Shown in pieces: positions 1,278 to 13,666 of a DNA stretch of 33,378 nt. The notes beneath the pieces were generated by a model. It did not search any database, had not been told where the DNA came from, and saw only the letters and a list, made by a program, of their open reading frames with translations. A program made the position numbers and the translations under genes. Positions within the stretch are counted from its first letter, which is position 1. Each line of letters opens with the position of its first letter. The stretch is from the sequence record PQ657771.1, one strand, 5' to 3'. This stretch comes from Escherichia phage EC.P3.

Positions 1278-1574
1278 TCAGAATTGCATATCAATTTGCT
1301 TAAAATCCTCGGTGGCGGCCGGGGATTTTTTCTTTGTGATTTCATCAAGCGCATACTTAAAAGCCCTGCTAATCGGACTGATGTCTGATGCCATTCCGAA
1401 AGCACACAAGACCGAAGCAATAAATCTCCAGTCCGTTCTGCTTATCTTCGATTCATGACAGCCAATCATCTTTGCCAGACCGCGCTGGGTAAGCGTTGAT
1501 AGGTTGATGAGTAAATCTGTTTCTGCGCGATCAACGTCACGCTGTGATAGTTTGCTGTAACTTGTTCGTTCCAT
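1278..1574 (-). CDS. cII: CII-like transcriptional activator
   Basis: Translation ends KKKSPAATEDFKQIDMQF, matching the lambda CII C-terminus KKRPAATERSEQIQMEF; correct position after cro/nutR. Confidence 0.8.
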   Translation of the reverse strand: MERTSYSKLSQRDVDRAETDLLINLSTLTQRGLAKMIGCHESKISRTDWRFIASVLCAFGMASDISPISRAFKYALDEITKKKSPAATEDFKQIDMQF

Positions 1575-1612
1575 TTCTTAAGATTTCCAATAGTGAATAG
1601 TTAGTTGAAAGG

Positions 1613-1630
1613 TATGCGTGGAAACGCATA
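1613..1630 (-). terminator. tR1-like hairpin between nutR and cII
   Basis: Perfect inverted repeat TATGCGT-GGAA-ACGCATA; weak U-tract, so probably rho-dependent or partial. Confidence 0.35.
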
Positions 1631-1659
1631 TGGCCTTAGTTGGTCAGATATCTTGGGAC

Positions 1660-1705
1660 TCGCTTTTCAGCGACGTAGGACGAATGTCCGTTGTTACAAA
1701 GAGCG
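1660..1705 (-). promoter_or_regulatory. nutR (boxA 1691..1705, boxB 1660..1673)
   Basis: Minus-strand CGCTCTTTGTAACAA (boxA-like) followed by hairpin TCGCT-GAAA-AGCGA (boxB-like), immediately after the cro stop; mirrors nutL. Confidence 0.6.
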
Positions 1706-1715
1706 GCTCCGCTTA

Positions 1716-1931
1716 TTAAGCGGCTTTGTGTTCCGGCGGGAACACGTCATCAAGACTTACTTTTGCGCCTAACTTATTTAGGCACGCAACAAGAGCACGG
1801 CATGTTTTAAGGTCTGGGAAGCGACGACCAGATTCCCAATGTCCGATAGCTCCCTGTGTGCATCCAACTGCCTTAGCAAGTGTTGTTTGAGAGATATTCA
1901 GTGACTCTCGATATTTTCGTAGGTTGCTCAT
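1716..1931 (-). CDS. cro: Cro-like HTH repressor
   Basis: Start moved to ATG 1931 (MSNLRKYRESLNISQTTLAKAVGCTQGAIGHWESGRR) preceded by GGAGGG; XRE-type HTH; divergent from CI-like gene. Confidence 0.7.
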   Translation of the reverse strand: MSNLRKYRESLNISQTTLAKAVGCTQGAIGHWESGRRFPDLKTCRALVACLNKLGAKVSLDDVFPPEHKAA

Positions 1932-2047
1932 ATGCCCTCCATAGTAACCTCGAATAAAAAATACAATATGTACTTTCCAAATACAAGCAAAAATACACAT
2001 TGTGCATGGATGGTTCCAGTACAGAGCGTAATAATAAGGACATGAAA
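1932..2047. promoter_or_regulatory. oR-like divergent promoter/operator region (pR and pRM equivalents)
   Basis: 116-bp AT-rich spacer between divergent cro and CI-like genes; contains CAATATGTACT, a motif recurring at pL, and repeated AATACA units. Confidence 0.5.
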
Positions 2048-2338
2048 ATGAAATGGTATGAACTGGCTAGATCCAGAATGAAAGAGCTCGGCATAACTCA
2101 AGAGAAGTTAGCCGAAGAGCTAGGTATGACGCAGGGTGGGATTGGACACTGGTTGCGCGGATCTCGTCATCCATCTCTTAGTGATATTGGTGTGGTGTTT
2201 AAATACCTTGGTATTGATAACATATCATTCAACCACGACGGGACATTTTCACCTGTTGGCGAATACTCATCGGCCCCAGTTAAAAAACAAGTGATAGGAA
2301 GTAAGTTTTATGTTGACGGCACAGTCAACTTGGCATAG
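2048..2338 (+). CDS. CI-like HTH repressor, short form without LexA/S24 autocleavage domain
   Basis: Start at ATG 2048 (AAGGA 7 nt upstream); MKWYELARSRMKELGITQEKLAEELGMTQGGIGHWLRG is an XRE HTH; about 97 aa, too short for a C-terminal peptidase domain. Confidence 0.6.
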   Translation: MKWYELARSRMKELGITQEKLAEELGMTQGGIGHWLRGSRHPSLSDIGVVFKYLGIDNISFNHDGTFSPVGEYSSAPVKKQVIGSKFYVDGTVNLA

Positions 2339-2351
2339 ATTAATTAAACCA

Positions 2352-2412
2352 AGCCCAGCCCCGTTCGCAGACAATTGTTAATATCTGCATAACGGCTCTG
2401 GGCTATTTTTTT
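2352..2412 (+). terminator. long-range stem-loop plus U-tract between repressor and NYN gene (possible attenuator)
   Basis: AGCCCAG (2352..2358) pairs with CTGGGCT (2398..2404), enclosing an inner GCAGA/TCTGC hairpin, followed by ATTTTTTT. Confidence 0.4.
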
Positions 2413-2421
2413 GGGACTCTT

Positions 2422-3279
2422 ATGAAGAAAGCAGCAATTTTAATTGATGCGGGTTTTTTCATGCAGCGTGTTCATGCTACGCATCGTAAACACTTCGCCG
2501 AGCATGAACTGACTGCGCAATGCATAATGAAAGTAATATGGTCAATGGTTCTTTCCCATCTTAATGGAAAACGTCAATCACAAGAACGTAGGGAACCGCT
2601 TGAGCTTTATAGAATTTACTTCTATGACTGTCCACCACTCGACATTCAAACACGCCTTCCACTTCCTGAGCCTGGCAATAAGACGCCTGGTCGCAAGAAT
2701 TTCAAACTCGAAAAATCATATATTCTGAGAACGGAGCTGCATGAAGAGTTAAGAAAAACTCGAAAAACAGCCTTAAGATTAGGGAATCTTGTTGATAATA
2801 AGCGATGGCAACTAACTACATTCTCCCTTGATGCTCTGATGAAAGGAACGAAAAAATGGGATGAACTGACAAATGATGATTTTTACTATGACATCAAACA
2901 AAAACAAGTTGATATCAAGCTAGGGATGGATATCACGACTTTAGCTTATGAAAAACTTGTTGATGTAATTGTCCTTGTTGCTGGGGACTCAGACTTTGTG
3001 CCTGCCGCCAAACACGCCAGAATTAAAGGTATTGATTTTATTCTTGATCCACTAAGACAGAATGTTACCCCATCACTGTCAGAGCACATTGATGGAGTTC
3101 AGTCATACAGCTTGATATCAGGACTTGCCGATGCTTTACATGTTGAGCCAGACCCGGCACCTGACTGGTGGGAAGATCGAAAAAAAGGCAAGCCTAGAGG
3201 AAAAAACAATAGCGGTAAACGCAGGTATGGAAACACTCAAGCTGAGTCTGCAAAGAAACATCAAAGAAATAAACGATAA
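2422..3279 (+). CDS. NYN-domain (PIN-like) putative nuclease with Lys/Arg-rich C-terminal tail
   Basis: N-terminal AILIDAGFF and later VLVAGDSDFVPAAKHARIKGIDF are NYN/LabA hallmarks with conserved acidic residues; C-terminus KKGKPRGKNNSGKRRYGNTQAESAKKHQRNKR; in the cI-to-N interval. Confidence 0.75.
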   Translation: MKKAAILIDAGFFMQRVHATHRKHFAEHELTAQCIMKVIWSMVLSHLNGKRQSQERREPLELYRIYFYDCPPLDIQTRLPLPEPGNKTPGRKNFKLEKSYILRTELHEELRKTRKTALRLGNLVDNKRWQLTTFSLDALMKGTKKWDELTNDDFYYDIKQKQVDIKLGMDITTLAYEKLVDVIVLVAGDSDFVPAAKHARIKGIDFILDPLRQNVTPSLSEHIDGVQSYSLISGLADALHVEPDPAPDWWEDRKKGKPRGKNNSGKRRYGNTQAESAKKHQRNKR

Positions 3280-3288
3280 TCCCATCAA

Positions 3289-3314
3289 CCCGGCCACCGA
3301 GCCGGGTTTTCTTT
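3289..3314 (+). terminator. rho-independent terminator after NYN gene
   Basis: CCCGGC-CACCGA-GCCGGG followed by TTTTCTTT, 10 nt after the stop. Confidence 0.7.
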
Positions 3315-3447
3315 GCCTCACGCCCCCACCTAAAGCACGCAATTCTGATCTCTCCTTACATCGCCGAGGCGATACACCCACGCTAAAAAACAACACTATT
3401 AAATACAAAGCGTTATAAAAAATCACCCCATTTTAGAACAAATTGTA

Positions 3448-3476
3448 TTGACCCAATAAAGTACATATCGTACTAT
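3448..3476 (+). promoter_or_regulatory. pL-like promoter overlapping operator-like inverted repeat
   Basis: TTGACC, 17-nt spacer, TACTAT; inverted repeat AGTAC-ATATC-GTACT overlaps the -10. Confidence 0.5.
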
Positions 3477-3522
3477 TTAACCGTCAGCAGGACGCTGTAA
3501 GCCAAACGGAGCAGACTGGCAG

Positions 3523-3568
3523 GCTCTTTAAACAACGTCGAACACTCGACTACGTGGCTGAAAAGCCA
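3523..3568 (+). promoter_or_regulatory. nutL (boxA 3523..3535, boxB 3555..3568)
   Basis: GCTCTTTAAACAA (boxA-like) then TGGCT-GAAA-AGCCA hairpin with GNRA-type loop, about 100 nt upstream of N. Confidence 0.65.
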
Positions 3569-3666
3569 GATCACCCAACCATATAAGCTGTGGGATGCAA
3601 TGCCGAAGCAACCGTCTCAGGAGGAGCTTCGAGATTGCATCGCCAAAGTTTATTCGGGAGGAATCT

Positions 3667-3939
3667 ATGTCCAGAAAAACAGAATTTAAAGGCACCGCAG
3701 CTTCTCGCCGTAGAGCTCGTCGTGCAAACCTGCAAAGTCAGGAGGCGATCAGCTCTGACAAGCTACACAGGCCAACCCCTTCACGAGTGGTCTTACAATG
3801 CAAACGCAAACCAGTAATGAGAGCAGAAGTAATAACACTGACAACGTTGACCAGAAAATATGAAGGCTCAACTTGTCTTCCAAATGTAGCCATTTACGCG
3901 GCAGGCTACAGGAAATCCAAACAGCTGACAGCAAGATGA
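3667..3939 (+). CDS. N: N-type transcription antiterminator
   Basis: Start at ATG 3667 after GGGAGGA; arginine-rich motif TAASRRRARRANLQ; C-terminus LPNVAIYAAGYRKSKQLTAR matches the P22 gp24 C-terminus as recalled. Confidence 0.85.
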   Translation: MSRKTEFKGTAASRRRARRANLQSQEAISSDKLHRPTPSRVVLQCKRKPVMRAEVITLTTLTRKYEGSTCLPNVAIYAAGYRKSKQLTAR

Positions 3940-4033
3940 CTTGTGTTGGTCGCCAGAAAATGAAATTAGGCAGCAAACCACTTATTTGGGATGTGGGGGC
4001 CTTTTTATATCAATCAAACAGAAGGAGCATCCT

Positions 4034-4204
4034 ATGCAACAGTTCGCTATTGCAGGGGCGGCATCGGTTCGCCCTTTCAACCCGATTTTATCGGTACAGC
4101 ATTCACGAAAAAATATTTTAACCGGAGCAGACTTTAAACAACCAAGAATGAAAAGTTTGCTCGAAAAGCTTTGGGATATTTTGAAACAACAAGGCCGTCC
4201 ATGA
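4034..4204 (+). CDS. hypothetical small early protein
   Basis: ATG 4034 with AGGAG 6 nt upstream; 56 aa; first gene after N. Confidence 0.4.
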   Translation: MQQFAIAGAASVRPFNPILSVQHSRKNILTGADFKQPRMKSLLEKLWDILKQQGRP

Positions 4205-8356: not shown

Positions 8357-8548
8357 ATGACCGATACCAGCCTGATTCCTGAGAAAGAAGTGATGAACAA
8401 GCTCGGTGTTTCATCACGTCAGACAATCTGGAACTATACCAAACGGCACGGATTTCCGAAGCCAGTCAGAACCCACCCCAAATCATACCTTCGTGAAGCT
8501 GTTGAAGGGTGGATTCTTAACGGTGGCGTTAATCAGAAATGCTCCTGA
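8357..8548 (+). CDS. AlpA-family DNA-binding protein (excisionase/regulator candidate)
   Basis: GGAG RBS; EKEVMNKLGVSSRQTIWNYTKRHGFPKPV fits the AlpA/Xis HTH pattern; 3' end overlaps the convergent integrase by about 20 nt. Confidence 0.6.
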   Translation: MTDTSLIPEKEVMNKLGVSSRQTIWNYTKRHGFPKPVRTHPKSYLREAVEGWILNGGVNQKCS

Positions 8549-9707
8549 TGTGCCAGAACAATTTATCAGCGTGAAGCTCATACGCTTTGCGCTGAGCCTC
8601 TATCCAGTCGTGTTTATTGTACACGGACATTATCCCGCCAAGTTCATGACCGAGCATTCGCTCAGTAACATGAGGCTCGACATTCATCTCGGACAGACGT
8701 GTAACAAGCGTTCTTCTGAAATCATGTGTTCGCCAGTAACCCAGATCCATCCCTCCCCTTATTCTATTTACGAATCGGTTGGCTGCAGCGATGCTGATCG
8801 GTTTGTTTATGTCTTCTCCAGGGAAAAGAACATCATTGTACGTTGTCATGGCCTTTTCGAGAAAAGGCTTAATTTGTTCGAAGATTGGACGGCGGATAAC
8901 ATTACCCATCTTGCTATGCTCTTTCGGTACGGTCCATACGTTGTCCAGCAGGTCAAATTCTGTCTTTGTTGCCAGCCTAAGCTCTGAGAGCCTCGCCCCC
9001 CACAGCATAAGCATCTGATGAAGGAGCTTATTTGACGTAGACGCACGGCTTCTTTCAATAGCAAGCCAAATCTTAGCCAGTTCGTGATACGACAGTACCC
9101 GATCCCCTACCTCAGCGCGGGAGCCGAAGTCCCTTGGTTGGATGCTCATAATTGCGCAACTATCTATCAACTGACGCCGCATGCACCAACTTATTGCTGA
9201 TCTTAGTTGACTTAGCACCTGCCTTGCTCGGCGTGGATTATCTCTTTCTTCTTCGGTAAGCAGGTCAACCCATTGCTTAACCGTGATAGAAGATGCCGGA
9301 CGATTAGGAAAGGCGTCATGCATGCGCTTCATAACCGTTGATCGGTAAAGTGCCTGGGTCTTTTCTCTGAGAGTTGTAGAGACGTAGTTGTCGAACCAGT
9401 AGTCGAGACACTGAGCGACCGTCATGGAGTTCTCCACCTTCTCTTCAAAATAGGTGCGTGGATCCGTTCCTGAGAAATAGAGCTTTCGCAAGTCAGCAGT
9501 GATCTGTCTGGCATCCTTCAAAGACAGGGATGGGTATCGACCAAGCCCAAGTCGATTAGGCTTGCCATGCCAGCGATAGCGGTACTGGAACTGGATGACA
9601 CCCTTCGGTGAAATTCGTACGCTGAGGCCATCGGCATCAGCCACTTCTTGTGGGCCCGAATATGGTTTACCATAAATAGTACGCAGTTTTGTGTCGCTTA
9701 TAGCCAT
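8529..9707 (-). CDS. int: tyrosine integrase, P4-type with N-terminal arm-binding domain
   Basis: 392 aa; N-terminal DGLSVRISPKGVIQFQYRYRWHGKPNRLGLGRYPSLSLKDAR typical of P4-like integrases; C-terminal HDFRRT and HELGG..SVY consistent with the catalytic region. Confidence 0.9.
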   Translation of the reverse strand: MAISDTKLRTIYGKPYSGPQEVADADGLSVRISPKGVIQFQYRYRWHGKPNRLGLGRYPSLSLKDARQITADLRKLYFSGTDPRTYFEEKVENSMTVAQCLDYWFDNYVSTTLREKTQALYRSTVMKRMHDAFPNRPASSITVKQWVDLLTEEERDNPRRARQVLSQLRSAISWCMRRQLIDSCAIMSIQPRDFGSRAEVGDRVLSYHELAKIWLAIERSRASTSNKLLHQMLMLWGARLSELRLATKTEFDLLDNVWTVPKEHSKMGNVIRRPIFEQIKPFLEKAMTTYNDVLFPGEDINKPISIAAANRFVNRIRGGMDLGYWRTHDFRRTLVTRLSEMNVEPHVTERMLGHELGGIMSVYNKHDWIEAQRKAYELHADKLFWHIRSISD

Positions 9708-9715
9708 AAATAATA

Positions 9716-10010
9716 TTTGGTACGCTCAGAAATAATAGTTTGGTACACATCTGGTACACAATATCACATGGACAACAGCGCACAGTAAACAACTATATTT
9801 GACGTTCGTAGACATACTCAGGTGAAAAAATGGTTGTTTTTCGAGTTATAACAGACAGTTAATTAACTACAGTGGACAATGCTAGACAATGACAGACACA
9901 GATAAACAACCTACCTTCCTCTTTCACGATTACGCGAAACGCCCCTGAGAACCGCCATGAACAAGGGTTTCATGATTTGTGATTTTAGTTTGGTACGCAA
10001 TTTGGTACAC
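9716..10010 (+). repeat. five direct copies of (T)TTGGTACRC, candidate integrase arm-type sites
   Basis: Copies at 9716..9725, 9739..9748, 9751..9759, 9989..9998, 10001..10010, same orientation; ATATCACAT at 9761..9769 and 10089..10097. Confidence 0.55.
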
Positions 10011-10521
10011 AACACAATTTTCACTTCAGCGGGTAGTCATCAAACTCACCATAACGAGCATCGTTAATGATGTATGTGATCACCACAAATATCACATCTG
10101 GACTAGTTCCGTCTTCATGCGCAGGTATCTGTTCACGCCTCCCTTTCTGCAAATCCTAAAGATGAGATTTTGGGGTTTTGGGATATCTTTTTATCCTCAG
10201 TTCTCTATCCATTCTACAAAGCAGTAATGAACCATCACCGTGTGATAGTGAGGCATCCGCTACGTTAAGCGCAGAGAAATGATGCAGTGATGGTCGGACT
10301 GGATTGATGAAAAGGTGGAGTGATCCACCTTAAACACTATCGAAGAGCACAAAACCTAGTAATCCAGTGCAAAGCTTTGTGTGTCTAAGTTTTGTCTCAT
10401 CAACCATAGCAAGTATCGATCGATTGAGACTTGGATGATAGACTTCATGCCTTTGATTATTAGCTGATAGAAGAAATGTTAAAGCTATTTGCAAAGCACA
10501 CCTCGATTGGTGTGCTGAAAA

Positions 10522-10545
10522 TAAAAAAGCTCAGTAATGGGCTTT
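10522..10545 (-). terminator. terminator after tailspike
   Basis: Minus-strand hairpin AGCCCA-TTAC-TGAGCT (one mismatch) then TTTTTT, just past the stop; second inverted repeat GCACAC/GTGTGC at 10495..10514. Confidence 0.5.
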
Positions 10546-10549
10546 TAGA

Positions 10550-12355
10550 TTATTTGAATAAATATGGAATTACAATTGCCACAGAAAATGTTACAGGGTT
10601 ACTGTGACCATTTGTTATGTGTACGCGAATTTTATTTGAAGATAACACCTGCAATTGAGTTGTGGCAATAGCAGAAGCTGCACTTCTTGATGTTATCTTA
10701 ACACTTGCATTTACCATGTCTAACTTTTCTGTTGTTGTTATATCTTGATATACATTGACACCTGCTGGAACATCTTGGAATGTTATAGTCTGATTGTAGA
10801 AACCATTAAACAATACTGTTTTCCCATGGGATACACCAACGCCTGATCTTATTGTTGGTAACAGTGTAGAGTTATCAGATGATATAAATGGAAACCCTAA
10901 GTCACCATCTGGTGAGGTGTTATTATTAAAAACATCGACATGGTCAAGATAGGTTGCCCTAACCATGCTTAATGGCCTCTGGTTACTATTCCATGAGTCT
11001 GCTGGAGTAACAATTTTAGGCTTGAACACAAGATCTCGTATACCCCAAGAATCAATTGCTATACATCCGTTTTCAAGCCCTTTAGCATATACAGTGTTAG
11101 TTTCGTCCATGCTGAAAGACGTTGGCGTACCGACCAGTATGCGGGCATAAGCATACTTTTTATAAAATGCATCACCTGGAGTTGCAGCACCGCCCCGCCC
11201 AGTAAGACCGTTATAAATAGATTGGTCATCCATATTTTCAAAGTAACAAAATTTAAACGCTATATTTTGCGGTCGAATAAGTGCAGCAGAATCAGTACCA
11301 ACAACGTAATTCGTCCACCGTTCAAACGCCATGGCAATAAAATTAATCGGACCATTACCAGCAGCGCCTGATATTTTGAAAAATGTATCAAAATCAACAG
11401 ATCTTCCGCCTATAAACTTAATGTTATATGCCCGCTGTATATCTGGGCCATTTTTAATTGCAAGCCAATCTGTATCTATAAATGTTACGTAAAAAGAATT
11501 GATACCTTGACATGGAACGTCAAACCCAAGCCAAGAAGTGCGGTTTGTTTTAATATTACCATTTAATGTCGATATTCCTTTATTCGTACCGATAGTACCG
11601 TTTCCATACTGTGGAATTCCCTTTACAATGACATCAGATAAAAAAACATCCGAATTTTCGCATTGAATAGCATAGTCCCCAGGAACGTCACAATATAATT
11701 GACTTGACTCCGCTCCTATAACCTTATTAGTCATATCGCCAGAATATCCACGAATCTCAAAGCGCCTACCTCCATATACGAGCTTTCGTTTAATTGTAAG
11801 CACTGAACCAGGTGGGATTGTAATAATCAAATGATTTGGATAGGCTGCCATCATTTCTTCAACAGCATCTGAGTCATCAGCCACACCATCGCATGTTGCG
11901 CCATAAGCCTGAGGTGTTACTGCGAACACAGCATTCTGAATTGTTCCTCCTTGTGTTAGGGGTATCATGTCAGCCCCCTTTCCATCTCCAGTCGATGTTA
12001 TTTCCTGGCGAAGCTGATCAGGATCATACTTCAGCACATTGGGAAAATTGAACTGCTGCGAACCATGCGCATCATAAACAGCCATAGAATGGCCTTGCAC
12101 GGTAACGAATTTGGCAATCTGTCCGTTATATACCGGATATCCGGCAGCGTTAATGATTATTGGTTGCGAAACAGGAATGTGAGAACCGTCTTCGTTCTCT
12201 ACATAAACCTGAATCTGGTTTTCAGGATTTACCGGGTCAGTGTCAATTTTACCGATATAAATTTTGCCATTAGCTACGGCTTTAAAAGAACGCGCCATAG
12301 TGAAGAGTTGCGAAGGCATACTCACTACAACATTGGCATTTATTGAATCTGTCAT
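10550..12355 (-). CDS. tailspike protein: P22-type head-binding domain, divergent receptor-binding domain
   Basis: Start moved to ATG 12355 (GGAG 8 nt upstream); [59 protein letters not shown] closely matches the P22 gp9 N-terminus as recalled; remainder diverges. Confidence 0.85.
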
Positions 12356-12413
12356 TTGATTTGCTCCAGATACAAGGAATGGCCGCAGCATGGCTACGGT
12401 GAATTTTGGGCAT

Positions 12414-12455: not shown

Positions 12456-13334
12456 TCAGTAGTTATGTACTGAAGGAGGTAATTCTTTATTCTTAAGTCT
12501 CATCCATGCGGAAAGATTCGTTGGTCCGTCTGGCTCATTGATATCAACATCTCGTGTGTGATTGATTAAAACGTCTCTCGCCATATCGATAATACGGGAG
12601 AACTCATAACCGCAGTCATGACATCTGCCGGAATAGTTCGATTGAATTTGTTTTAGCGCCGGATACAGTTCGCGGAATAATGCCTGTGAGCGGTTGGCAT
12701 AATCCCATAACCATACAAGGCTGTTTGCTTCTTTTGCAGAAAGCTCGTTGGTTTTCTTCTCTTGTTTGCCGATGAATTCACCTTCAAGCACTACCCTGTG
12801 GATGTACTCTACGGCTTGCGGGATTTGTTCAATTGAAAGTTCATCAATGCTGTCAATACCAAAACGCTGATGAACCATATTGTATGCATCGTCATAGCGA
12901 AGTCCTTTCTTTCCTACCAGCATGTTTACTGCATCGCGTAGCGGTGTTCTTTCCTCAACAGTGGTTTTCTTTCCTTTTACATACTCGCCATGTTTGCGAA
13001 TTGAAGGCAGAACTTCTGCTGTTACCCACTTGCGGAATTTGTGCGGGACTGAACCTTTATTGACTGCATCGCGGCAGCGCAGAACCAATGTATACATACC
13101 TGATTCGCTCACAATGCTTAGATTCTGCTCACCACCAAGGGTGTAACTTAAAGTTACTCCCTTTTCATCGTCATCAAGTGCAGTAAGCGCCTTGCGTGAG
13201 TTAGTCAGGGTTAAAGCATCACAAACATCTTTTGCTACAAACCACGGCTCACCGCACTTGTTGATGACGCGGATTTCACTGTCGCCGAATTTGAAGATGG
13301 TGAAATCGTTTTGTGCCTTTGCTATACTTTTCAT
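12456..13334 (-). CDS. ant: antirepressor (BRO-N domain)
   Basis: [33 protein letters not shown] is a BRO-N signature; downstream of arc as in P22 immI; start set to ATG 13334 (AGGAAAT upstream), alternative TTG at 13400. Confidence 0.7.
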
Positions 13335-13396
13335 GTCAATATTTCCTAATCCGATTTGTTGATGCCGAAGCCCTGACTGTTCCCGCAGTTGGGGCT

Positions 13397-13666
13397 TCAA
13401 CGTTTTTCCACTTCATTTTGAATTTGCTTAAGTAGCATATTTGTCTCGTCAAGCCTCTTGTTAATACGGTCAAGGCTTTCTACTAAATCGTTATGTGCAT
13501 GTGATACTTCGTAATTTGAGACTGATTTCTTTTCCTCTATCGTCTTTGTCAATCGTTCCCCTGATTGATACATATTGATTAACGATGTAAAAATCACGAG
13601 CAAGCAAACTACAATGATTGCGCCAGACAAAAATTGTAAAGAACGATCAAGCAATGACACCTTCAT
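13397..13666 (-). CDS. small membrane-anchored coiled-coil protein
   Basis: One N-terminal hydrophobic helix ([19 protein letters not shown]) then heptad-like charged segment; coupled to the arc stop; lies between arc and ant. Confidence 0.5.

What the first reader, a model, noticed from the sequence alone, without database searches (positions are those of the whole stretch)
9708..10549. attP-like region with five direct TTTGGTACRC repeats
Five same-orientation copies of (T)TTGGTACRC in two clusters (9716..9759 and 9989..10010) flank a roughly 200-bp segment that probably holds the core crossover site. A second repeat, ATATCACAT, occurs at 9761 and 10089, and GACAATG repeats at 9861..9891 could be accessory-factor sites.
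Basis: seen in the sequence. Interest (0 to 1): 0.45.

Follow-up and report, generated by a model that had tools for sequence, protein, structure and literature searches.

The report
Phage attachment site targeting sbcB
This is the ordinary attachment site (attP) that a P22-like coliphage uses to insert into the host gene sbcB; the five repeats are very probably landing pads for one end of the phage integrase, and the site type is already annotated in near-identical phages.

Summary
TGGTACRC occurs six times in the window. Five copies, all on the + strand, lie at 9716-9759 and 9989-10010; about one copy is expected by chance in the whole window.

The interpretation also holds. The window is 100% identical to phage E212 here. 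At 96-98% identity it matches the 'type 2851' attP annotated in mEp234 and HK544. The 13-bp core TTTCACGATTACG (9922-9934) lies between the two clusters and matches codons 13-17 of E. coli sbcB. The target is therefore not a tRNA or tmRNA gene. In 591 of 5426 complete E. coli genomes this attP is split, and in the listed junctions the break falls at 9934.

The adjacent gene (8529-9707, - strand) encodes a P4-type tyrosine integrase with an arm-binding domain. Integrases only 55-61% identical keep five direct repeats at the same positions relative to the int start, with a different repeat sequence. P4's annotated arm repeats have the same distal geometry. The repeats are therefore best read as arm-type integrase sites, though binding is untested.

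The GACAATG pair lies in a phage-borne copy of the sbcB 5' end (ATG at 9889) that rebuilds sbcB after insertion. The ATATCACAT pair is at chance level. Only about 9708-10012 is attP. The finding is ordinary and of low interest.

The parts
8529..9707 (-). int: a 392-aa P4-type tyrosine integrase whose start codon abuts the attP
   Evidence: Pfam Arm-DNA-bind_3 matches residues 4-85 (E 8e-18) and Phage_integrase matches residues 204-366 (E 1e-16). The protein is 99-100% identical to the integrases of E212, mEp234, Sf101, 2851, HK544 and HK140.
8357..8548 (+). A 63-aa AlpA/Xis-like helix-turn-helix ORF, the probable recombination directionality factor. It is convergent with int and overlaps the int 3' end by 20 bp.
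   Evidence: The best PHROG match is phrog_66, 'excisionase and transcriptional regulator' (E 2e-8). RefSeq records of the same phage module annotate it as an 'AlpA family regulatory protein'.
9716..9725 (+). Int-proximal arm-type repeat (P'3 by analogy with lambda), TTTGGTACGC. It lies at -18 from the int ATG when read as GCGTACCAAA in the int sense.
   Evidence: A repeat at -17 to -19 is conserved in 933W-type, Hafnia yong2 and SEN34 integrase modules and in most of 80 genome loci.
9739..9748 (+). Int-proximal arm-type repeat (P'2), TTTGGTACAC, at -41 from the int ATG
9750..9759 (+). Int-proximal arm-type repeat (P'1), TCTGGTACAC, at -52 from the int ATG
9760..9774 (-). It is a candidate int promoter element or accessory-protein site, and its function is not established.
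   Evidence: The block recurs at the same place upstream of int in several Enterobacterales lineages: it is exact in Escherichia, Buttiauxella and Yersinia and varies at 1-3 positions in Erwinia, Chimaeribacter, Pantoea and Serratia. Other lineages have GTTCACTTGCCATTG there.
9861..9921 (+). Diverged phage-borne copy of the sbcB 5' untranslated region and first 11 codons (ATG at 9889, MTDTDKQPTFL). After integration it replaces the native sbcB 5' end. It holds both GACAATG copies. The left boundary is approximate.
   Evidence: Window 9905-9934 matches K-12 sbcB at 26 of 30 bases. PGAP starts sbcB at the base equivalent to 9889 in lysogen PT109. The chimeric N-terminus MTDTDKQPTFLFHDYETF compares with native MMNDGKQQSTFLFHDYETF. 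All 25 sbcB-associated loci from different genera have an in-frame start 10-13 codons before the core.
9922..9934 (+). attP core: the 13-bp identity with attB, TTTCACGATTACG (published as CGTAATCGTGAAA), within which strand exchange must occur
   Evidence: It is annotated as attP 'type 2851' in mEp234 and HK544 and as the insertion duplication in Stx phage 1717. The attP, attB and both junction sequences line up on it. The split-attP junctions listed from E. coli genomes end at 9934. The Sf101 paper reports the same 13 bp and a PCR-sequenced junction in sbcB (PMC4159516).
9989..9998 (+). Distal arm-type repeat (P2 by analogy), TTTGGTACGC, starting 55 bp beyond the core and at -291 from the int ATG
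   Evidence: The position is conserved in phi346/P27 (-286), yong2 (-285) and SEN34 (-292). P4's annotated distal arm repeats lie 54-77 bp from its core.
10001..10010 (+). Distal arm-type repeat (P1), TTTGGTACAC, 12 bp from P2 and at -303 from the int ATG
10021..10152 (-). Remnant of a UmuD-like gene (43-aa ORF). It lies inside the flagged interval but is not part of attP, and it contains the second ATATCACAT copy.
   Evidence: It is annotated as an 'error-prone repair protein UmuD' fragment in mEp234 record PV340539. The full-length homologue is HK140_028. It gives a weak match to PHROG 10470, UmuD-like (E 0.006). Homology with HK544 and HK140 ends at about 10084-10091.
10495..10546 (.). Two hairpins downstream of the tailspike gene (10550-12391, - strand), probably its terminator region; not part of attP
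   Evidence: The terminator scan reports a hit at 10525-10546. The GCACACC/GGTGTGC hairpin is visible in the sequence. The tailspike is identified by the Pfam Head_binding domain.

Best explanation
The interval about 9708-10012 is the attP of a P22-like temperate coliphage identical to phage E212 here. It belongs to the known 'type 2851' class of attachment sites that integrate into the 5' end of the host gene sbcB (exonuclease I).

Shown: the adjacent P4-type tyrosine integrase recombines the 13-bp core TTTCACGATTACG (9922-9934) with the identical sequence at sbcB codons 13-17.

Inferred: the five direct TTTGGTACRC repeats are arm-type sites bound by the integrase N-terminal Arm-DNA-bind_3 domain. 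Three lie next to the int start codon, 163-206 bp from the core. Two lie 55-76 bp on the other side of the core. Integrase molecules would then bridge arms and core, with DNA bending by host or phage factors, to form the recombination complex.

Inferred by analogy with KplE1 IntS and P4 Int: int is transcribed on its own, away from attP, so its promoter must lie within or next to the three proximal repeats. Integrase binding there would also repress int.

Shown at sequence level only: the DNA between the proximal repeats and the core carries a substitute sbcB 5' end, with its ATG at 9889. Insertion therefore leaves an intact sbcB reading frame. Expression of that frame is not shown.
For: Identity and annotation:
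- The interval is 100% identical to phage E212. It is 96-98% identical over the attP part to mEp234 and HK544, where the 13-bp core is annotated 'attP (type 2851)', and to Sf101, 2851, 1717 and HK140.
- The core is identical to K-12 sbcB, and 26 of 30 bases match around it.
- attP, attB and both prophage junctions align as expected.
- 591 of 5426 complete E. coli genomes carry the attP split, and in the listed int-side junctions the match ends at 9934, next to sbcB.
- The Sf101 paper sequenced a junction and placed it in the sbcB 5' end (PMC4159516).

Integrase: it has Arm-DNA-bind_3 and Phage_integrase domains, and an AlpA/Xis-like gene lies next to it.

The repeats:
- Five of the six window copies cluster here, against 0.96 expected in the whole window.
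- Integrase modules only 55-61% identical keep five direct repeats at nearly the same offsets from the int ATG. E212 has -303, -291, -52, -41 and -18. phi346/P27 has -298, -286, -54, -43 and -19. Hafnia yong2 has -297, -285, -53, -42 and -18. SEN34 has -304, -292, -52, -41 and -17. The repeat sequences differ: GYGTACCA, GNGTACA and RAGTACA.
- SEN34 keeps the same sbcB core but has a different arm motif.
- In 76 of 80 species-level genome loci encoding this integrase family, a 7-mer recurs at least 3 times in direct orientation within 80 bp upstream of int, against 30% of shuffled controls. The dominant spacing is 11-12 then 20-25 bp, and the motif changes by lineage, for example to GYGTCC in Vibrionaceae.
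- The P4 reference record annotates 'attP arm sequence repeat' features: two tandem distal repeats 54-77 bp from the core, and three near the int start.

Autoregulation precedent: PMC2951348 shows it for KplE1 IntS and cites it for P4 Int.
Against: - No protein-DNA binding data exist for this integrase, so arm-site function rests on comparative inference.
- Among phages of the same attP type, the repeats and core are only mildly less variable than their surroundings: 2 of 63 variable columns against 24 of 250.
- No IHF consensus with up to 1 mismatch was found, apart from one that overlaps a repeat.
- The sigma-70 scan found no promoter-like site on either strand. The int promoter, and any promoter for the rebuilt sbcB, are therefore unlocated.
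- No N-domain residue column cleanly separates GTACC-type from GTACA-type arm motifs.
- All five repeats here are direct, whereas P4 has one inverted repeat and lambda has P2 inverted.
Confidence: 0.9

Rival explanations
1. The five repeats are binding sites for the AlpA/Xis-like directionality factor, or another phage regulator, rather than for the integrase N-terminal domain. Integrase would then act on the core alone or through other, unrecognised arm sites.
For: An AlpA/Xis-like gene is linked to int in every relative examined, so it would co-vary with the repeats much as the integrase does. Directionality factors characteristically bind tandem direct repeats, such as the TorI sites in KplE1 attL (PMC2951348). 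No integrase residue was found that tracks the motif change.
Against: The repeats lie on both sides of the core, at fixed distances. That is the pattern of arm-type integrase sites, whereas the TorI sites described in the KplE1 paper lie in attL, on one arm. The integrase has a dedicated arm-binding domain that needs such sites. The P4 record annotates the equivalent repeats as attP arm repeats. [quoted passage not shown]
Confidence: 0.06
2. The repeats serve mainly as operators of a divergent promoter region, controlling int leftward and the rebuilt sbcB rightward. On this view they contribute little to recombination.
For: The three proximal repeats lie within 52 bp of the int ATG, where the int promoter must be. 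In the 933W-type lineages a good TTGCCA-18-CATAAT promoter overlaps the two upstream repeats (my reading of the sequences printed). Integrase autorepression through such sites is documented for KplE1 and P4.
Against: The two distal repeats lie about 290-300 bp from int, beyond the core, and cannot be explained as int operators. Their distance from the core equals that in P4. In the documented precedents the regulatory and recombination roles coexist, so this is an added function rather than a true alternative.
Confidence: 0.03
3. The repeats are chance or non-functional sequence duplications in an AT-rich intergenic region.
For: The motif is short at 8-10 bp. Variation within this attP type gives only weak evidence of constraint.
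Against: None of 100 shuffles reached 6 copies. Position, number and orientation are conserved across integrase lineages down to about 45% identity, while the surrounding sequence is not alignable.
Confidence: 0.01

Closest known systems
attP 'type 2851' of sbcB-integrating lambdoid and P22-like phages (Stx2c phage 2851, Stx phage 1717, Sf101, mEp234, HK544, HK140)
   Same: These phages share the 13-bp core CGTAATCGTGAAA and an integrase 99-100% identical to the one here. The attP DNA is 91-98% identical. The target is the same, the 5' end of sbcB.
   Different: Nothing differs in kind. The E212 record itself carries no att annotation. The related records annotate only the core, or in HK140 a 147-bp 'putative attP', and none annotates the five arm repeats. 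The DNA beyond about 10084-10397 differs between phages.
Satellite phage P4 attP and Int
   Same: The integrase is of the same class: Arm-DNA-bind_3 plus a tyrosine recombinase catalytic domain, with an AlpA/Vis-type directionality factor. Int starts right next to attP. Two tandem distal arm repeats spaced 12 bp apart lie 54-77 bp from the core, against 55-76 bp here. Three repeats lie near the int start. Int autorepression is reported for P4.
   Different: P4's arm motif is GGGGGCA, not GTACC. One of its proximal repeats is inverted and overlaps the int start codon. Its proximal arm is shorter, 113-163 bp against 163-206 bp. Its 20-bp core matches a tRNA-Leu gene (my own recollection), not a protein gene. 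The two integrases are only distantly related; the alignment is.
KplE1/HK620 IntS-TorI recombination module
   Same: The int promoter lies inside the int-proximal att arm, and int and the directionality-factor gene are transcribed separately. Arm-type P' sites overlap the promoter and give negative autoregulation (PMC2951348).
   Different: That module uses a different integrase lineage; HK620 Int is about 22% identical. Its target is tRNA argW. Regulation was shown experimentally there and is only inferred here.
Phage lambda attP (P1, P2 / core / P'1-P'3)
   Same: The logic is the same: an integrase that binds two kinds of site, with two arm sites on one side of the core and three on the int-proximal side. 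The total size of about 300 bp is comparable to lambda's 250 bp.
   Different: The arm lengths are reversed: here the three-site, int-proximal arm is the long one. All five sites are direct, whereas lambda P2 is inverted (my own recollection of the lambda sequence). The arm-binding domain belongs to a different family. No clear IHF consensus was found. Int is not co-transcribed with xis.

Membership tests
Tyrosine-integrase attP with separate arm and core sites (lambda/P4 kind) | An adjacent tyrosine integrase that has a separate N-terminal arm-binding domain | tested here: met
   Pfam Arm-DNA-bind_3 (E 8e-18) and Phage_integrase (E 1e-16) match the 392-aa ORF at 8529-9707.
Tyrosine-integrase attP with separate arm and core sites (lambda/P4 kind) | A short core sequence identical in attP and in the bacterial attB | tested here: met
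   TTTCACGATTACG at 9922-9934 equals K-12 sbcB at L004 4793-4805, and 26 of 30 bases match around it.
Tyrosine-integrase attP with separate arm and core sites (lambda/P4 kind) | Prophage junctions in lysogens are the two halves of attP, joined to host DNA at the core | tested here: met
   591 of 5426 E. coli genomes carry the split attP. The listed int-side matches end at 9934 next to sbcB, and the other half abuts the dacD side. A PCR-sequenced junction is reported in PMC4159516.
Tyrosine-integrase attP with separate arm and core sites (lambda/P4 kind) | Repeated arm-type sequences, unlike the core, on both sides of the core | tested here: met
   Three repeats lie at 9716-9759 and two at 9989-10010. 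Their positions are conserved across integrase lineages while the motif changes.
Tyrosine-integrase attP with separate arm and core sites (lambda/P4 kind) | The integrase N-domain physically binds the arm repeats | not testable with these tools
   This needs gel-shift or footprinting experiments. No published data for this integrase were found in the library searches.
Tyrosine-integrase attP with separate arm and core sites (lambda/P4 kind) | Binding sites for a DNA-bending accessory protein (IHF or similar) between arms and core | tested here: inconclusive
   The only WATCAANNNNTTR match with up to 1 mismatch in 9700-10030 overlaps an arm repeat; 0.64 matches are expected by chance. IHF sites are degenerate, so absence is not shown.
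Tyrosine-integrase attP with separate arm and core sites (lambda/P4 kind) | A linked excisionase or directionality-factor gene | tested here: met
   The 63-aa ORF at 8357-8548 matches PHROG 'excisionase and transcriptional regulator' and is annotated as AlpA family in relatives.
attP 'type 2851' (sbcB-integrating) | The 13-bp core CGTAATCGTGAAA upstream of a 2851-type int gene | tested here: met
   The core is present at 9922-9934 (reverse complement). The integrase is 99.2% identical to that of phage 2851.
   ARAGORN finds no tRNA or tmRNA in the window and Rfam finds nothing in 9500-10700. The core matches the coding 5' end of sbcB instead.
Autoregulated int module (KplE1/P4 type) | The int promoter overlaps arm-type sites, and integrase represses its own transcription | tested here: inconclusive
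   The geometry fits: int is transcribed alone, its ATG lies 9 bp beyond the nearest repeat (whose far edge is at -18), and xis is convergent. No consensus promoter was detected, and expression cannot be tested here.

The most novel reading that the evidence does not exclude
The int-proximal arm of this attP may be a three-in-one element. It would carry the arm-type integrase sites, the int promoter, and a portable replacement for the promoter, ribosome-binding region and first 11 codons of the host gene sbcB. Lysogens would then keep exonuclease I, but with its expression set by phage DNA and possibly modulated by integrase or Xis occupancy of the same region. The evidence is at sequence level. 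All 25 sbcB-associated integrase loci from different genera have an in-frame start 10-13 codons before the core and a peptide ending Q-(P/S)-(T/S)-F-(L/Y). Third codon positions vary most in the five codons before the core. PGAP annotates the chimeric sbcB as intact. Repair of a target gene's 5' end, which requires the phage to supply a promoter, is reported far less often than repair of a 3' end, as far as I recall.
Probability: 0.55. Interest if true: 0.35.

Novelty: already known. Interest (0 to 1): 0.17.

Why it matters
The practical value is small. The result lets the E212 genome be annotated with its attP, predicts that this phage lysogenises at sbcB, and maps the probable integrase arm sites of a site class that is very common: about 11% of complete E. 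coli genomes carry it, including many Stx prophages of O157. The conserved layout of two distal and three proximal repeats at fixed offsets from the int start could serve as a simple rule for finding attP arms and prophage ends in this P4-related integrase family. The observation that these phages rebuild the sbcB 5' end suggests that occupying sbcB need not cost the host exonuclease I, which bears on why this locus is so often occupied.

Tried and rejected
- **tRNA or tmRNA target:** ARAGORN found none in the window and Rfam found nothing in 9500-10700. The core matches sbcB, so this idea is rejected.
- **IHF sites:** a consensus scan gave one match with 1 mismatch, overlapping an arm repeat, which is no better than chance. 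No IHF site is claimed.
- **Promoters:** the sigma-70 scan of 9600-10650 found 0 sites against 2.5 expected in shuffles. My hand-picked candidates for int (TTGTGT-18-TATTAT, overlapping the repeats) and for the rebuilt sbcB are weak and are not claimed.
- **Specificity residues:** I looked for integrase N-domain residues that separate GTACC-type from GTACA-type arm motifs in 80 loci. No column separates them.
- **Constraint within this attP type:** the difference is mild, 2 of 63 variable columns against 24 of 250. I relied on the comparison between integrase types instead.
- **ATATCACAT pair as a functional repeat:** rejected as a pair. 0.6-2.2 such pairs are expected by chance, and the second copy lies in a umuD-like remnant at the point where attP-module homology with other phages ends.
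- **ORF 9979-10227 (+, 82 aa; 'hypothetical protein' in Sf101) and ORF 10330-10494 (-):** neither has a Pfam or PHROG match. The first overlaps the distal arm repeats, and I treat both as non-genes.
- **Original phage 2851 paper (PMC2583581):** it is not held in the library, so its content is cited only through the Sf101 paper.
- **The Phi24B att paper (PMC7581858):** it gave no arm-site information usable here.
Full report
**What is in the sequence**

The flagged interval 9708-10549 is the whole gap between two minus-strand genes. One is a 392-aa ORF at 8529-9707, whose start codon is at 9707. The other is a 613-aa ORF at 10550-12391. Pfam identifies the first as a tyrosine integrase with an N-terminal Arm-DNA-bind_3 domain (residues 4-85) and a Phage_integrase catalytic domain. 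It identifies the second as a P22-type tailspike through its Head_binding domain.

TTTGGTACGC lies at 9716, TTTGGTACAC at 9739, TCTGGTACAC at 9750, TTTGGTACGC at 9989 and TTTGGTACAC at 10001, all on the + strand. TGGTACRC has six matches in the 33-kb window against 0.96 expected, none of 100 shuffles reached six, and five of the six are here. AATATCACAT is present at 9760 and 10088. GACAATG is present at 9875 and 9885. A single exact 9- or 10-mer pair is expected by chance in a stretch of this size (2.2 and 0.6 pairs).

**What it is**

The interval is 100% identical to Escherichia phage E212, a P22-like Lederbergvirus whose record carries no att annotation. Its first roughly 380-690 bases are 94-98% identical to mEp234, HK544, HK140, Sf101 and APC_JM3.2. 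The part from about 9905 onward is 91-92% identical to one end of Stx prophages 2851, 1717 and relatives.

In mEp234 and HK544 a 13-bp feature is annotated 'attP; prophage attachment site (type 2851)'. It maps to window 9922-9934, TTTCACGATTACG. In Stx phage 1717 the same 13 bp are annotated as the duplication made by insertion. [quoted passage not shown] I checked this directly. Window 9905-9934 matches E. coli K-12 sbcB at 26 of 30 bases. The last 13 bases are identical and cover codons 13-17 (F-H-D-Y-E). Aligning attP, attB, an int-side junction (strain PT109) and the far-side junction (phage 1717 record) gives exactly the pattern expected from crossover within these 13 bp. Among 5426 complete E. 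coli genomes, 591 contain this attP in split form. In the listed int-side junctions the match ends at 9934, next to a gene annotated sbcB.

The host target is a protein-coding gene, not a tRNA or tmRNA. ARAGORN and Rfam find nothing in the region.

**Are the five repeats arm-type integrase sites?**

No binding data exist for this integrase, so the case is comparative, and it is strong.

- *Related phage modules.* I examined integrases 55-61% identical to this one, from phages with intact attP. These are 933W-type Stx phages phi346 and vB_EcoS_P27, Hafnia phage yong2 and Salmonella phage SEN34. Each has five direct repeats at almost the same offsets from the int start codon:

| Phage | Offsets from the int ATG |
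|---|---|
| E212 (window) | -303, -291, -52, -41, -18 |
| phi346 / P27 | -298, -286, -54, -43, -19 |
| Hafnia yong2 | -297, -285, -53, -42, -18 |
| SEN34 | -304, -292, -52, -41, -17 |

  The repeat sequence differs between them: GYGTACCA, GNGTACA and RAGTACA. The DNA in between is not alignable. SEN34 is especially informative because it keeps the same sbcB core (CGTAATCGTGAAAGAGGAA) but has a different arm motif.

- *Genome survey.* A scan of one genome per bacterial species returned 80 loci encoding this integrase family at 43-99% identity. In 76 of them a 7-mer recurs at least three times in direct orientation within 80 bp upstream of int, against 30% of shuffled controls. The dominant spacing is 11-12 bp and then 20-25 bp. 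The motif changes by lineage, for example to GYGTCC in Vibrionaceae and GTGCCC in one Thaumasiovibrio locus.

- *Comparison with P4.* The reference record of satellite phage P4, the prototype of this integrase class, annotates 'attP arm sequence repeat' features. Two tandem repeats spaced 12 bp apart lie 54-77 bp beyond the core, and three lie near the int start. Here the distal pair is also spaced 12 bp apart and lies 55-76 bp from the core.

Repeats on both sides of the core, at fixed distances, next to an integrase with an arm-binding domain, are what arm-type sites look like. The TorI sites described for the KplE1 directionality factor lie on one arm only, in attL. I put the arm-site reading at about 0.85-0.9 and the alternative, sites for the AlpA/Xis-like protein, at about 0.06.

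Three weaker points remain. Variation within this attP type shows only mild constraint: 2 of 63 variable columns in repeats plus core against 24 of 250 elsewhere. No clear IHF consensus was found. No integrase N-domain residue tracks the change from GTACC to GTACA motifs.

**How it probably works**

Shown: the core, the target, the junctions, the integrase domains, and the conserved geometry of the repeats.

Inferred: integrase molecules bind the repeats through their N-terminal domains and the core through their catalytic domains. With DNA bending by IHF or another factor, they assemble a recombination complex on roughly 9708-10012 and exchange strands with sbcB inside the 13-bp identity.

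The AlpA/Xis-like ORF at 8357-8548 is convergent with int and overlaps its 3' end by 20 bp. It would direct excision.

Int is transcribed alone, away from attP, and its ATG lies 9 bp beyond the nearest repeat, whose far edge is at -18. The int promoter must therefore lie within or next to the three proximal repeats. In KplE1 (IntS) and P4 this arrangement gives negative autoregulation by the integrase (PMC2951348). I infer the same here with a probability of about 0.5. The promoter scan found nothing, so the promoter is not located.

Directly next to the innermost proximal repeat is a block, GTCCATGTGATATTG in the int sense (9760-9774). It is conserved at the same place in several Enterobacterales lineages. 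It may be a promoter element or an accessory-protein site.

The second ATATCACAT copy (10089) lies inside a 43-aa remnant of a UmuD-like gene at 10021-10152 on the minus strand. It sits exactly where homology with HK544 and HK140, which carry the same integrase, ends. It is therefore not part of the shared attP module, and the pair is best treated as coincidence.

The two GACAATG copies lie in a stretch (about 9861-9921) that is a diverged copy of the sbcB 5' untranslated region and first codons. The second copy contains an ATG at 9889 in frame with sbcB across the core. The resulting protein begins MTDTDKQPTFLFHDYETF, against native MMNDGKQQSTFLFHDYETF. NCBI's PGAP annotation starts sbcB at exactly this base in lysogen PT109.

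The same holds more widely. In all 25 of the 80 genome loci where an integrase of this family lies 216-227 bp from an sbcB-type core, the prophage-side DNA provides an in-frame ATG, GTG or TTG 10-13 codons before the core. The encoded peptide ends Q-(P/S)-(T/S)-F-(L/Y). In the five codons before the core, third positions vary most: diversity is 0.52 against 0.26 and 0.21 at positions one and two.

The GACAATG repeats are thus more likely part of a substitute ribosome-binding and start region than accessory-factor sites. Whether the rebuilt gene is transcribed, and from which promoter, is not shown.

**The rest of the flagged interval**

About 10013-10549 is not attP. It holds:
- the umuD-like remnant;
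- a segment (to about 10397) shared with mEp234, Sf101 and Stx phages, with no recognisable gene;
- E212-specific sequence;
- two hairpins downstream of the tailspike gene.

**Comparison with what is known, and verdict**

This is a member of the already annotated 'type 2851' class of sbcB-targeting attachment sites. Every defining feature that can be tested here is met. Its architecture is P4-like: the same integrase class and the same distal-arm geometry. It differs in arm motif, in having all five repeats direct, in a longer proximal arm, and in targeting a protein gene. Its logic is lambda-like, with two arm sites on one side and three on the other, but with the arm lengths reversed.

The arm repeats are not annotated in any of the records I inspected, and I found no paper describing them. 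They are nevertheless exactly what one would expect for such an integrase. The finding is real and correctly interpreted, but ordinary.

The only mildly novel thread is the conserved phage-borne replacement of the sbcB 5' end. It implies that the int-proximal arm also has to supply expression signals for a host gene.

Noticed in passing
window 9861-9934: The phage carries a diverged copy of the sbcB 5' untranslated region and first 11 codons (ATG at 9889), so integration rebuilds an intact sbcB reading frame. All 25 sbcB-associated integrase loci from different genera do the same, with a coding-like pattern of substitutions.
   Followed up: partly
window 10021-10152 (- strand): A 43-aa remnant of a UmuD-like gene lies next to attP. 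The full-length gene is present at the same place in phage HK140, and mEp234 record PV340539 annotates the fragment as UmuD.
   Followed up: partly
window 9760-9774: The block GTCCATGTGATATTG (int sense) abutting the innermost proximal arm repeat is conserved upstream of int in several Enterobacterales lineages. Other lineages have GTTCACTTGCCATTG there, which contains a good -35-like TTGCCA. It may be part of the int promoter.
   Followed up: partly
window 8357-8548 (+) and 8529-9707 (-): The AlpA/Xis-like gene and int are convergent and overlap by 20 bp at their 3' ends. Early-left-operon transcription would therefore run antisense through int towards attP.
   Followed up: no
L015 (Salmonella phage SEN34) 300-700: SEN34 has an integrase 60% identical to this one and the same sbcB core, but a different arm motif (RAGTACA) at the same five positions. 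This is a natural swap of arm specificity with core specificity kept.
   Followed up: partly
L016 (Klebsiella phage ST11-VIM1phi8.3) about 400-480: A prophage with a 61%-identical integrase has a core-like TTTCGTAATC next to a gene annotated 'intracellular protease', not sbcB. This may be a retargeted relative.
   Followed up: no
L013 (E. coli O157:H7 MB9-1 chromosome) 3001-3393: An uninterrupted attP copy (97% identical) lies inside a chromosome and is followed by nleG7 and tail genes. It looks like the joint between tandem or composite prophages at sbcB.
   Followed up: no
L012 (E. coli PT109) 1322-4106: In this lysogen int is a pseudogene with an internal stop, yet the chimeric sbcB is annotated intact. 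The prophage is a decaying remnant fixed at sbcB.
   Followed up: no
window 10153-10397: About 245 bp beyond the umuD-like remnant is shared at 91-96% identity with mEp234, Sf101 and many Stx prophages. It has no ORF with a family match, and its function is unknown.
   Followed up: no
window 12456-13400 (- strand): A 314-aa ORF with Bro-N and P22_AR_C domains, an antirepressor-like protein, lies just upstream of the tailspike gene.
   Followed up: no
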